Shown: positions 32,451 through 33,884 of the stretch, piece after piece
How the letters are laid out: the number at the start of each line of letters is the position of its first letter
How positions within the stretch are numbered: position 1 is the first letter of the stretch
UHGV virus genome: UHGV-0248752
Direction: 5' to 3' (one strand)
DNA: 36,228 bases
Source: a virus
The notes under the pieces: generated by a model
Told to the model about the DNA's origin: nothing
What the model saw: only the letters and a program-made list of their open reading frames with translations
Databases searched by the model: none
Program-made: the position numbers and the translations under genes

Positions 32451-33331
32451 TGTTTCATGTTGATAATAATTCCGGCGTGGCGAATATGCCTGCGCTGGCA
32501 CCGGCGCAGAGTAATACCACCACCTGGTTTACCGAAGGTGACGGACAAAAAGGTATCAGCTGGATTGGTCAGGACTGGCTGAATATTCTCCAGGCCGAAC
32601 TGCTGAATATTCTGGCTGAAGCCAGTATTCAGCCGGATAAGGCGCAGTTAAACCAGCTTACGCTGTCCATTAAAGCCATTATCGCTGCGAATGCCTTTTC
32701 CCGGAAAAATAACCTGAAAGAAATTGCTGATGCCGGTGCGGAGGCCCAGCGTCTGGCCCGTGGTTATCTTGGTCTGGGGACGCTTGCCACAAAAAACAGT
32801 CTTGGTCCCGCTGACGTTAATGCCCTGGCGAAGGATCAGAATCTCGCCGACCTGGAGAATAAGGGAACCGCCCGTAATAATCTGGATGTTTACAGCAAAA
32901 GCGAAGGTGATAACCGTTACCTGCGCAGGGAGCAGAACGGCGCAGACATTCCGGATAAAGGGGCTTTTATCGATAACGTCGGTTTACGGGAAACGGTAAA
33001 CAGGGCGGCGAATGCCCTGCCATCGGACGGCACCGCCGTTGCCGCGAACAGGCTGGCAAATGCCCACACAATTAATGGTGTTCCCTTTGACGGGACGCAG
33101 GATATCACTATCTCATCAGGAACAGTAACCGCCATAAGACTGGGGTCGGTGACCGCACATATGCCCGGAACATGGGAAAGCTGGGATCTGAATCTGGGGG
33201 GCGGCAATGTTCTTACCGGAATTAAAGTACAGGATGTCGGTAAGAATACGGCAGATAACGTCGGCGGCGTGTATTACCGGCCGTTGCAGTATCTGTTAAA
33301 TGGAGCATGGGTGACGGCTGCAAGTATATAA
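32450..33331 (+). CDS. Tail fibre protein: constant N-terminal part (residues 1 to about 176) fused to the currently expressed variable C-terminal tip
   Basis: 293 aa. The ORF crosses the left recombination site at 32967-32992, so its last 117 aa are encoded inside the invertible segment. Position after the baseplate genes. Confidence 0.85.
32967..32992 (+). other. Left gix-like crossover site (TTATCGATAACG-TC-GGTTTACGGGAA)
   Basis: 26-bp site of two imperfect inverted half-sites around a 2-bp core (TC at 32979-32980). Inner half identical to the inner half of the right site. Resembles the Gin/Hin/Cin crossover-site family as I remember it. Confidence 0.7.
32981..33102. repeat. Left copy of the inverted repeat flanking the invertible segment
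   Basis: 32981-33053 is the reverse complement of 34224-34296 with a single mismatch. A second shorter block, 33081-33102, matches 34175-34200. Between them is a roughly 25-bp divergent patch. Encodes the conserved 41 aa [38 protein letters not shown]. Confidence 0.85.
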
Positions 33332-33339
33332 TGATATTC

Positions 33340-33359
33340 AGAAGGCCTTCCGGCCTTCT
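33340..33359. terminator. Bidirectional hairpin terminator between the convergent fibre and chaperone genes
   Basis: agaaggcc-ttcc-ggccttct (8-bp stem, 4-nt loop) followed by TTATT, lying in the 31-bp gap between the fibre stop (33329-33331) and the minus-strand chaperone stop (33363-33365). Confidence 0.55.
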
Positions 33360-33362
33360 TTA

Positions 33363-33884
33363 TTACTGTGGCTGCTCAGGCCATTTAATGGCGTTAAATT
33401 CAGCTTCTGTTTTAATGGCGGGTAGTTCCATTTTCTTCACCTGACTGATGTATGCCATCCATTGGGTAAGTGCTGCTCTGTCTTCATCGCTGATGGTGCC
33501 CAGTTGTAGCTCCGTTCTCCAGTCATTAATTTTTTCATATGCCTGATTAAGATATGACTGGCGCATTGCTTCCAGTTTTCTTGCGTAGTTAACCGGAATA
33601 CGGGAGATTATGCCATTATCAAACTTCCAGTTTCCTGAAATATCCGTGCCTTCAGGGAGTTCATCGACCTCAACCACAGAAAACCCCGCAGGATACAGCG
33701 CCGAGGCGTCCTGTGATATTGAGCAGATAACGCCGCTGTCAGGTGTTATGCAAAGTTTATATTTTTTGGTGAATAATGGCAGGGATTCGTAGAAATCCTT
33801 ACCATCTTCACTCTGGAAATACTGAACATTATTACCATATGGCATATTTTCAGGATAATAACGGGTTATATTTTTTAGTTCCAT
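33363..33884 (-). CDS. Tail fibre assembly protein (chaperone, U-prime-like) inside the invertible segment
   Basis: 173-aa minus-strand ORF with a strong RBS aggagg upstream of its ATG at 33884. Convergent with the fibre gene and co-oriented with the alternative fibre tip. Confidence 0.85.
   Translation of the reverse strand: MELKNITRYYPENMPYGNNVQYFQSEDGKDFYESLPLFTKKYKLCITPDSGVICSISQDASALYPAGFSVVEVDELPEGTDISGNWKFDNGIISRIPVNYARKLEAMRQSYLNQAYEKINDWRTELQLGTISDEDRAALTQWMAYISQVKKMELPAIKTEAEFNAIKWPEQPQ

What the first reader, a model, noticed from the sequence alone, without database searches (positions are those of the whole stretch)
33104..33884. Asymmetric switch: only the alternative orientation has a fibre-assembly chaperone gene
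In Mu and P1 each fibre tip is followed by its own co-oriented chaperone gene. Here the expressed tip ends at 33331 and is followed within 31 bp by the stop of the single minus-strand chaperone gene, which is co-oriented with the frameshifted alternative tip. The currently expressed tip therefore has no cognate chaperone in cis. Either it folds without one, the chaperone is expressed from its own promoter in the AT-rich 33885-33935 region and serves both tips, or a chaperone gene was lost.
Basis: partly seen in the sequence, partly recalled or inferred. Interest (0 to 1): 0.45.

Follow-up and report, generated by a model that had tools for sequence, protein, structure and literature searches.

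The report
One-chaperone invertible tail-fibre switch
A Mu-like E. coli prophage flips a 1.3-kb DNA segment to swap the tip of its tail fibre, but carries one fibre-assembly chaperone gene instead of the usual two; this layout is conserved in hundreds of genomes, so it is a stripped-down variant of a well-known switch, not a defect.

Summary
The fibre gene (32450-33331, +) ends 31 bp from the stop of the only tfa gene in the 36-kb window (33363-33884, -). That gene is co-oriented with the alternative tip (33936-34304, -). The alternative tip is not frameshifted: in-silico inversion gives a 296-aa fibre, and natural flipped copies exist.

The locus is a minimal Gin-type invertible segment of about 1.3 kb. 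It has gix-like sites at 32967-32992 and 34284-34309 and the invertase gene at 34375-34947. Both tips are ~75-aa homologues of the Mu S/S' and P2 H C-terminal knob.

The single-tfa layout recurs in every related lineage examined, including the O157 Sp18 type, with Tfa diverged to 60% identity. Both orientations occur in nature: 182 versus 25 genomes for the Sp18 type and about 17 versus 4 for the window type.

Tip A is under purifying selection (dN/dS about 0.09). A lineage without the invertase or tip B keeps tip A convergent with an intact tfa in six diverged alleles (dN/dS 0.11-0.37).

Best reading (about 0.5): one generalist Tfa serves both tips and is transcribed independently of orientation. 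No convincing promoter was found, so that step is inferred. This is a new variant of a known kind, of modest interest.

The parts
32450..32980 (+). Constant N-terminal part of the tail-fibre gene (Sc, 177 aa), outside the invertible segment
   Evidence: Residues 1-191 align with the N-terminus of Mu S (5yvq_A 9e-46; 8ju3_A 9e-47). This part is 95-99% identical in most related lineages (71% in L006).
32967..32992 (.). Left crossover site (gix-like), TTATCGATAACGTCGGTTTACGGGAA, core TC at 32979-32980
   Evidence: Read from the sequence. It is the inverted partner of 34284-34309. The gix/hix consensus is recalled from established knowledge, not tested here.
32972..33120 (.). Left arm of the ~150-bp inverted repeat inside the segment; encodes [23 protein letters not shown]...[12 protein letters not shown], shared by both fibre forms
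   Evidence: the repeat finder pairs I1 (86 nt, 93%) and I2 (50 nt, 84%) have the same coordinate sum, 67276.
33121..33331 (+). Tip A: the variable C-terminal knob now fused to Sc (about 70 aa plus stop)
   Evidence: It is 46.6% identical to the C-terminus of SfMu gp52 (S'), E 4e-16, and 44-52% identical to P1-like and P2-like fibre tips. It carries the shared motif RLG..G.V.TG..D..RP.Q..NG.W. dN/dS is 0.09 at dS 0.4.
33340..33359 (.). Hairpin between the convergent fibre and tfa genes; intrinsic-terminator-like on the + strand
   Evidence: Flagged by the terminator scan. Folding energy is -15.9 kcal/mol (+ strand) and -14.8 kcal/mol (- strand), z -3.1 and -2.9. A U-tract follows only on the + strand.
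33363..33884 (-). tfa: the single tail-fibre assembly protein gene (173 aa)
   Evidence: Pfam Caudo_TAP 4.8e-19; Mu U 5yvq_B 4e-16. It is the only tfa homologue in the window. dN/dS is 0.12-0.22 between lineages.
33885..33935 (-). AT-rich spacer (22% G+C) between the tip B stop and the tfa start; AGGAGG Shine-Dalgarno sequence 7 nt before the ATG; possible but unproven site of a tfa promoter
   Evidence: Sequence. Spacers are 51-121 nt in all one-tfa lineages, against 0-3 nt or overlap in SfMu, P1-like, P2-like and Fels-2 phages. Only weak 8-of-12 sigma-70 matches are present.
33936..34155 (-). Tip B: the alternative C-terminal knob, co-oriented with tfa, silent in this orientation
   Evidence: Open frame. 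It aligns with Mu S residues 435-502 (8e-8) and is 42-46% identical to the H tips of L-413C and pro147. It is expressed as a 296-aa fibre in flipped natural copies.
34156..34304 (.). Right arm of the inverted repeat
   Evidence: arm alignment.
34284..34309 (.). Right crossover site (gix-like), TTCCCGTAAACCGAGGTTTTCAGGAA, core GA at 34296-34297
34375..34947 (+). Gin/Cin/Pin-type serine DNA invertase (190 aa)
   Evidence: Pfam Resolvase 1.6e-51 and HTH_7 4.9e-15. It is 71-72% identical to SfMu Gin, P1-like Cin and the Fels-2 invertase.

Best explanation
This is a minimal three-gene version of the Mu G / P1 C invertible host-range segment. The constant fibre stem (Sc) lies outside the segment. 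A Gin-type invertase flips about 1.3 kb between two gix-like sites and fuses Sc in frame to one of two homologous ~75-aa C-terminal knobs, tip A or tip B. The segment holds one Tfa chaperone gene instead of two.

The single Tfa is a generalist that assembles both knobs. In the B orientation, tfa follows the fibre gene and can be read from the late fibre transcript. In the A orientation found in this window, tfa is convergent with the fibre gene. The hairpin terminator at 33340-33359 shields it from the fibre transcript. It must then be transcribed on its own, from a weak or activator-dependent promoter in or upstream of the AT-rich spacer, and translated from its own strong AGGAGG ribosome-binding site.

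Shown: the anatomy, the in-frame switching, the natural occurrence of both orientations, conservation of the layout, purifying selection on tip A and tfa, and retention of tfa where only tip A exists.

Inferred: that Tfa acts on tip A, and that tfa is transcribed independently of orientation.
For: 1. Anatomy and in-frame inversion are established.
2. Both orientations occur in near-identical strains, for example FORC_029/069 versus FORC_043/NCCP 13983. Two-copy strains carry one copy in each orientation. The Sp18 type shows 182 versus 25 genomes.
3. Every related lineage fetched has exactly one tfa, convergent with an A-type tip and co-oriented with a B-type tip. Between lineages Tfa has diverged to 60% identity and synonymous sites are saturated.
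4. Tip A has dN/dS 0.08-0.09 at dS 0.4-1.0, so it is a used, functional domain.
5. Tip-A homologues in SfMu (S'), a P1-like phage and fiAA91-ss are each followed within 0-3 bp by their own tfa. This knob class is therefore normally Tfa-associated.
6. Tfa identity does not track tip class. SfMu gp51, partner of an A-like tip, is 85-86% identical to the G proteins of L-413C and pro147, partners of B-like tips. Within the prophage group the same Tfa type sits with three different tip B cassettes and two tip A classes.
7. An invertase-less, tip-B-less architecture exists: fibre-tip A and a convergent tfa, followed by a shared 304-nt junction that is 94-100% identical. It is present in 7 complete genomes plus other assemblies. 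It carries six distinct tfa alleles, all intact, with dS 0.15-0.43 and dN/dS 0.11-0.37. There tfa has no co-oriented fibre gene and no upstream gene on its strand.
8. The tip B-to-tfa spacer is 51-121 nt in one-tfa systems, against 0-3 nt or overlap in two-tfa and non-inverting systems.
9. Sp18, a relative with the same layout, is reported as intact. It packages its DNA, and Mu-like particles seen in O157 Sakai supernatant were attributed to it (PMC2669165).
Against: - No sigma-70-like promoter reaches the scan threshold on the tfa strand in the window or in three relatives. A relaxed scan gives only 8-of-12 matches.
- Spacer sequences differ between lineages, so no conserved promoter motif can be named.
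- Recombination is rampant in this region. The diverged tfa alleles in the invertase-less lineage may have been imported rather than evolved in place. That weakens, but does not remove, the selection argument.
- No expression or binding data exist for any member.
- In Mu the Tfa stays bound to the fibre tip (North 2019, as summarised in PMC9608196). That would need more than trace expression.
Confidence: 0.5

Rival explanations
1. Tip A folds and trimerises without any Tfa. The single tfa serves only tip B and is expressed only in the B orientation, by read-through from the fibre gene.
For: - No credible promoter for tfa is found in the A orientation.
- The terminator after tip A is oriented for the fibre transcript.
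- tfa is co-oriented with tip B in every lineage.
- The fibre is short (293 aa) and tip A is a small knob.
Against: - Homologous A-type knobs in SfMu, P1-like and P2-like phages always come with their own tfa.
- Lineages that lost tip B and the invertase still keep an intact tfa in six diverged alleles with dN/dS 0.11-0.37. This is hard to explain if tfa were useless for tip A.
- Tfa type does not co-vary with tip B type.
Confidence: 0.22
2. In the A orientation the chaperone comes in trans from elsewhere in the cell, for example from tfa genes of other resident prophages (lambdoid, P2-like, e14-like). The phage's own tfa matters only for tip B.
For: - Tfa proteins are promiscuous across tip classes.
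- From established knowledge, lambda Tfa can replace T4 gp38.
- E. coli hosts of these prophages usually carry several other prophages. The query matched up to 6-9 places in some genomes.
Against: - It makes infectivity depend on the host's prophage content.
- It does not explain why the invertase-less lineage retains an intact tfa.
- There is no direct evidence.
Confidence: 0.1
3. The A orientation is a functionally poor or 'off' state with fibreless or misfolded-fibre particles. The one-tfa layout is tolerated decay in largely domesticated prophages.
For: - Many carriers are clonal STEC lineages in which prophages can persist without infecting.
- In one relative (L005) the invertase gene is frameshifted.
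Against: - Tip A is under strong purifying selection (dN/dS about 0.09).
- A is the majority orientation (182 versus 25; about 17 versus 4) and the one fixed in invertase-less lineages.
- The prophages sit at different chromosomal sites in different strains, which implies recent transposition or infection.
- Sp18 packages its DNA, and Mu-like particles were attributed to it.
Confidence: 0.08

Closest known systems
Phage Mu G segment (S, U, U', S', gin) and its close relative SfMu
   Same: - It sits in a Mu-like genome, after the baseplate J and Gp48 genes.
- Sc is homologous to the N-terminus of Mu S (9e-46).
- The tips are homologous to the C-terminal knobs of Mu S and S'.
- Tfa is homologous to Mu U (5YVQ_B).
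- A Gin-type invertase (71% identical to SfMu Gin) lies immediately to the right.
- gix-like 26-bp sites lie in inverted orientation, and both orientations are seen in nature.
   Different: - The segment is about 1.3 kb, not about 3 kb.
- The variable part is only the last ~70-75 aa, not ~330 aa.
- There is one tfa, not two.
- A 51-nt AT-rich spacer precedes tfa, instead of tight coupling.
- An esterase-like DUF6645/SASA gene replaces com/mom downstream.
P1 C segment (cin), Fels-2 / SEN8 invertible fibre regions, e14 P segment (pin)
   Same: All use a serine-invertase-driven exchange of fibre C-termini with Caudo_TAP chaperones inside the invertible DNA. The invertases are 72% identical to the window's.
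   Different: The P1-like, Fels-2 and SEN8 regions checked here have two convergent tfa genes, one per tip. That e14 also has two is from memory.
Sp18, the Mu-like prophage of E. coli O157:H7 Sakai, and its relatives
   Same: It has the same three-gene layout: fibre-tip A, then a convergent tfa, then tip B, then the invertase (locus L003 is of this type). [quoted passage not shown]
   Different: - It is a different allele set: Tfa is 61% identical, the tips are an A2-class tip A and a different tip B cassette, and the spacer is 79 nt.
- The single-chaperone feature was not singled out or explained in the papers read.
Non-inverting fibre-tfa pairs of P2-like phages (P2 H/G, L-413C, fiAA91-ss, pro147)
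   Same: They use the same knob family and the same Tfa family. Nearly identical G proteins accompany A-like and B-like knobs.
   Different: They have no invertase and a single tip, and tfa follows the fibre gene within 0-3 bp.

Membership tests
Gin/Cin/Pin/Hin-type invertible tail-fibre (host-range) segment | Adjacent small serine recombinase of the invertase subfamily | tested here: met
   Pfam Resolvase 1.6e-51 and HTH_7 4.9e-15. It is 71-72% identical to SfMu Gin, P1-like Cin and the Fels-2 invertase, and Ser9 is present.
Gin/Cin/Pin/Hin-type invertible tail-fibre (host-range) segment | Two 26-bp crossover sites in inverted orientation with a matching 2-bp core | tested here: met
   The sites are 32967-32992 and 34284-34309, with cores TC and GA. 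Their resemblance to the gix/hix consensus is judged from memory of the published sites.
Gin/Cin/Pin/Hin-type invertible tail-fibre (host-range) segment | Constant 5' part of the fibre gene outside the segment, alternative 3' parts inside, in frame in both orientations | tested here: met
   The fibre is 293 aa as found and 296 aa after in-silico inversion. A natural flipped copy exists.
Gin/Cin/Pin/Hin-type invertible tail-fibre (host-range) segment | Both orientations occur in populations or isolates | tested here: met
   Window type: 17 versus 4 at 99% identity or more. Sp18 type: 182 versus 25. Both orientations also occur among contigs that encode one Tfa allele.
Gin/Cin/Pin/Hin-type invertible tail-fibre (host-range) segment | One co-oriented tfa per alternative tip (Sv-U / U'-Sv' symmetry) | tested here: not met
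   There is one tfa in the window and one per locus in all relatives. SfMu, P1-like, Fels-2 and SEN8 have two. This symmetry is typical of the classic members rather than mechanistically required.
Gin/Cin/Pin/Hin-type invertible tail-fibre (host-range) segment | Fis-dependent recombinational enhancer inside the 5' part of the invertase gene | not tested
   Only the nucleotide identity of gin positions 61-200 to SfMu gin was computed (101 of 140). Fis sites were not analysed.
Caudo_TAP tail-fibre assembly proteins (Mu U, P2 G, lambda Tfa) | Sequence membership in the family | tested here: met
   Pfam PF02413, 69 bits against a cutoff of 22; 5yvq_B 4e-16.
Caudo_TAP tail-fibre assembly proteins (Mu U, P2 G, lambda Tfa) | Gene immediately downstream of, and co-oriented with, its client fibre gene | tested here: inconclusive
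   This holds only in the B orientation, and even there a 51-nt spacer intervenes. In the A orientation and in invertase-less lineages tfa is convergent with the fibre gene.
Caudo_TAP tail-fibre assembly proteins (Mu U, P2 G, lambda Tfa) | Binds the fibre C-terminal knob and is required for trimer assembly | not testable with these tools
   This needs co-expression and binding experiments or multimer structure prediction.
Mu S/S' - P2 H C-terminal receptor-binding knob | Homology of both alternative tips to the knob that Tfa binds in 5YVQ | tested here: met
   Tip B aligns with Mu S 435-502 (8e-8). Tip A matches SfMu S' at 4e-16. The shared motif appears in a 12-sequence alignment.

The most novel reading that the evidence does not exclude
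The flip may change more than the knob. In the B orientation tfa lies in the late fibre operon and would be made in step with the fibre. As in Mu, Tfa could then stay on the tip as a second surface-binding subunit. In the A orientation tfa would be made only at a low level from its own weak promoter and would act catalytically. The two phage forms would then differ in both the knob and the presence of Tfa on the virion. A one-chaperone switch would thus encode two kinds of adhesin complex.
Probability: 0.12. Interest if true: 0.55.

Novelty: new variant of a known kind. Interest (0 to 1): 0.3.

Why it matters
The textbook fibre switches of Mu and P1 pair each tip with its own chaperone. This has encouraged the view that Tfa proteins are tip-specific.

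A conserved, naturally flipping switch with two different knobs and one chaperone argues otherwise. So does the invertase-less derivative, in which the chaperone gene sits convergent to its only possible client. Together they suggest that Tfa of this class is a generalist and can be expressed as a separate unit.

This is useful for engineering fibre tips, for example in P2/Mu-type tailocins and for host-range swapping, because one chaperone may suffice for many knobs. It also gives a compact 1.3-kb natural system for testing what Tfa actually recognises.

It does not change the understanding of the inversion mechanism itself.

Tried and rejected
- Frameshift in the alternative tip: rejected.
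- A hidden second tfa: tblastn with 13 diverse Tfa proteins on all six frames of the window found none, and relatives have one each.
- Recent accidental loss or pseudogenisation: rejected. The layout is shared by lineages with saturated synonymous divergence, and tip A and tfa are under purifying selection.
- A sigma-70 promoter for tfa: consensus scans of the window and of L003, L005 and L009 found nothing upstream of tfa on its strand except one 9-of-12 site in L009, inside the 304-nt junction. A relaxed scan of the window gave only 8-of-12 candidates.
- A shared late-promoter motif: a 19-nt resemblance between the tfa spacer and the region upstream of the SASA gene was derived post hoc. The short core is not specific: 17 one-mismatch hits, most of them away from any intergenic late region. 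It is given no weight.
- Co-variation of Tfa with tip B or tip A: the pattern is mosaic. Tfa type follows neither tip cleanly.
- Erwinia phage ENT90 as a second one-tfa example: it uses a different tip family and a different tfa family, and it has two tfa copies, so it is not comparable.
- The genome-contig scan with the Tfa alignment gave only two loci, both with tightly coupled fibre-tfa pairs.
- Literature searches found no paper that describes or explains a single-chaperone invertible fibre segment. The closest is the remark that the Sp18 host-specificity region is 'atypical'.
- Structure prediction was not used. Only single chains can be modelled here, and the question concerns a complex.
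Full report
**What is there**

The window is almost a whole Mu-like E. coli prophage. Its right end reads as follows:
- baseplate J gene (30817-31899) and Gp48/YmfQ gene (31890-32450);
- a 293-aa tail-fibre gene (32450-33331, +);
- a 173-aa Caudo_TAP gene on the opposite strand (33363-33884);
- a promoterless fibre 3' end, also on the opposite strand (33936-34304);
- a Gin-type serine invertase gene (34375-34947, +);
- an esterase-like ORF that runs off the window.

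The same 2.6 kb is found at 100% identity in several complete E. coli genomes.

**Checking the observation**

The fibre stop codon is at 33329-33331 and the tfa stop codon at 33363-33365 (minus strand). The 31 bp between them hold an 8-bp GC-rich hairpin at 33340-33359 that folds significantly better than shuffles. A U-tract follows it only on the + strand.

tblastn with 13 Tfa proteins from Mu-, P1- and P2-like phages finds only this one tfa in all six frames of the 36 kb. The asymmetry is therefore real.

The statement that the alternative tip is frameshifted is not. The minus strand is one open frame from 34328 to 33936. The two inverted-repeat blocks (32972-33057 with 34219-34304, and 33071-33120 with 34156-34205) pair with the same coordinate sum, so there is no indel between them. 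Inverting 32981-34295 in silico gives an in-frame 296-aa fibre. Strain NCCP 13983 carries exactly that arrangement, with tfa now directly downstream of the fibre gene and co-oriented with it.

**Anatomy of the switch**

The 26-bp sites TTATCGATAACGTCGGTTTACGGGAA (32967-32992) and TTCCCGTAAACCGAGGTTTTCAGGAA (34284-34309) are inverted partners with cores TC and GA. From memory of the published sites, they look like gix/cix/hix sites.

The invertible DNA is about 1.3 kb. About 140 bp just inside each site are homologous and encode a shared stretch of the fibre. Only the last ~70-75 codons differ.

The constant part matches the N-terminus of Mu S (9e-46). Tip B aligns with Mu S residues 435-502 (8e-8). 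Tip A is 47% identical to the C-terminus of SfMu S' (4e-16). Tfa matches Mu U in the S-U crystal structure 5YVQ (4e-16).

A 12-sequence alignment shows that both tips belong to one knob family with a common motif, RYV..RLG...G.V.TG...D...RP.Q..ING.W. The invertase is 71-72% identical to SfMu Gin, a P1-type Cin and the Fels-2 invertase.

**Is the one-chaperone layout an accident?**

No. Every related lineage I fetched has exactly one tfa, convergent with an A-type tip and co-oriented with a B-type tip. These lineages were the Mu-like insert in two Stx phages, the O157 Sp18 type and four others. Their Tfa proteins are as little as 60% identical, and synonymous sites between them are saturated.

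By contrast, SfMu, a P1-like phage, Fels-2 and SEN8 show the canonical two convergent tfa genes.

The switch is active:
- In the window's lineage, 17 complete genomes have the orientation seen here and 4 the flipped one, at 99% identity or more.
- Near-identical strains differ only in orientation.
- Strains with two copies carry one of each.
- For the Sp18 type the counts are 182 and 25.

These counts are not phylogenetically independent.

**Does the currently expressed tip matter, and does it need Tfa?**

Tip A has dN/dS 0.08-0.09 at dS 0.4-1.0, so it is a used domain. Its homologues in SfMu, a P1-like phage and fiAA91-ss are each followed within 0-3 bp by their own tfa. This knob class is therefore normally chaperone-associated.

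Tfa identity does not follow tip class:
- SfMu gp51, partner of an A-like tip, is 85-86% identical to the G proteins of L-413C and pro147, partners of B-like tips.
- Inside the prophage group one Tfa type sits with three different tip B cassettes and two tip A classes.
- Near-identical tfa genes accompany tip A variants with dS about 1.

This argues for a generalist chaperone.

The most telling evidence is a derivative architecture without tip B and without the invertase. It has fibre-tip A, a convergent tfa, a 304-nt junction that still holds a scrap of the invertase 3' end, and then the DUF6645/SASA gene.
- It occurs in seven complete E. coli genomes and in further assemblies.
- The junction is 94-100% identical throughout, which implies one origin.
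- It carries six distinct tfa alleles, all full length, with pairwise dS 0.15-0.43 and dN/dS 0.11-0.37.
- It has A-type tips only.

In these phages tfa has no co-oriented fibre gene and no upstream gene on its strand, yet it is kept. The simplest reading is that Tfa serves tip A and is transcribed on its own.

One caveat applies. Recombination is frequent here: tfa dS exceeds the junction divergence. Some alleles may therefore have been imported from switch-carrying relatives.

**How tfa would be expressed in this window**

In one-tfa systems the tip B stop and the tfa start are 51-121 nt apart. In two-tfa and non-inverting relatives the gap is 0-3 nt or an overlap. In this window the spacer is 22% G+C and ends in AGGAGG-N7-ATG.

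That fits an independent expression unit, but I could not find a convincing promoter:
- The consensus scan finds none on the tfa strand, here or in the L003 and L005 relatives.
- A relaxed scan gives only 8-of-12 matches at 33948-33915.
- The spacers are not conserved between lineages.
- The invertase-less junction has better candidates: a 9-of-12 site and a perfect TATAAT about 115 nt upstream.

A weak or activator-dependent promoter, as for Mu late promoters, is an inference and not a result.

**Literature**

Asadulghani et al. 2009 described Sp18 as intact, efficiently packaged and the probable source of Mu-like particles. [quoted passage not shown]

North et al. 2019, as summarised in PMC9608196, showed that the N-domain of Mu Tfa binds the fibre tip and stays on the virion.

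I found no paper that singles out or explains the single-chaperone layout.

**Verdict**

The finding is a correct observation with one factual error. The locus is a conserved three-gene variant of the Mu G / P1 C host-range switch and is not damaged.
- Best explanation (about 0.5): one generalist Tfa serves both knobs and is expressed independently of orientation.
- Rival (about 0.22): tip A does not need Tfa.
- Rival (about 0.1): the chaperone comes in trans from other prophages.
- Rival (about 0.08): the A state is defective.

It is a new variant of a known kind and of modest interest. Its main value is as a compact natural test bed for Tfa specificity.

Noticed in passing
window 35033-36228 (+), runs off the end: An ORF with a sialic-acid-specific acetylesterase domain (Pfam SASA 2.9e-14), annotated DUF6645 in relatives, sits directly after the invertase gene, where Mu has com/mom. 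It is conserved in all related prophages and resembles the NanS-p esterases of Stx phages.
   Followed up: partly
E. coli complete genomes: There is a strong orientation skew in assemblies. The state with tfa antisense to the fibre gene is found in 182 versus 25 genomes (Sp18 type) and about 17 versus 4 (window type). It could reflect clonal inheritance, biased recombination or selection; this was not resolved.
   Followed up: partly
L009, L020, L021, L024, L036-L039 (tfa to DUF6645 junction, 304 nt): An invertase-less, tip-B-less derivative has a shared deletion junction that retains the last ~28 codons of the invertase gene. It is present in 7 complete genomes and other assemblies. Strain JE86-ST05 carries both this form and the invertible form identical to the window.
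   Followed up: yes
window 33121-33884 versus L009, L001, L003: The mosaicism is fine-grained. Tip A is identical at synonymous sites between the window and L009, while the adjacent tfa has dS 0.375. L003 and L001 have near-identical tfa (dS 0.04) but tip A with dS about 1. The recombination breakpoints must lie in or next to the 31-bp hairpin region.
   Followed up: partly
window 33895-33924 (+): Two overlapping sigma-70-like sites (TGGAAA, then 16 or 18 nt, then TATATT or TATTAT; 9 of 12 matches) lie inside the tfa spacer. They point away from tfa, through antisense tip B towards the invertase gene. The number of such sites is not above chance for the region.
   Followed up: no
window 33894-33912 (-) and 34967-34985 (+): A 19-nt resemblance (AAAACAGATTTATTTCCAG versus AAAACACATATTTTTCAGC) links the tfa spacer and the region upstream of the esterase gene. 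The pattern was derived from these two sites, so the statistics carry no weight.
   Followed up: partly
L005/L007/L009-type spacer (e.g. L009 4030-4046, minus strand): The 86-nt spacer upstream of tfa in several lineages contains a small hairpin (TTGCCTGTATATGGCAA) followed by a T-rich run. It also has an in-frame ATG 51 nt upstream of the real start, which makes gene callers report a 190-aa Tfa.
   Followed up: no
L017 (NZ_JBQPOM010000054.1, labelled Vagococcus sp.): A contig labelled as a Gram-positive Vagococcus carries an enterobacterial-type Gin-like invertase, a P2/Mu-type fibre and a tfa. It is probably contamination or a mislabelled assembly.
   Followed up: no
L031-L033 (E. coli Mu-like prophages found via Tfa homologue P0038): Another Mu-like group has no invertase. 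It has a short fibre plus tfa, followed by a second, longer fibre (phage_tail_N / Phage_fiber_2) with a DUF4376-type chaperone, and then com/mom. This is a two-fibre solution instead of a switch.
   Followed up: no
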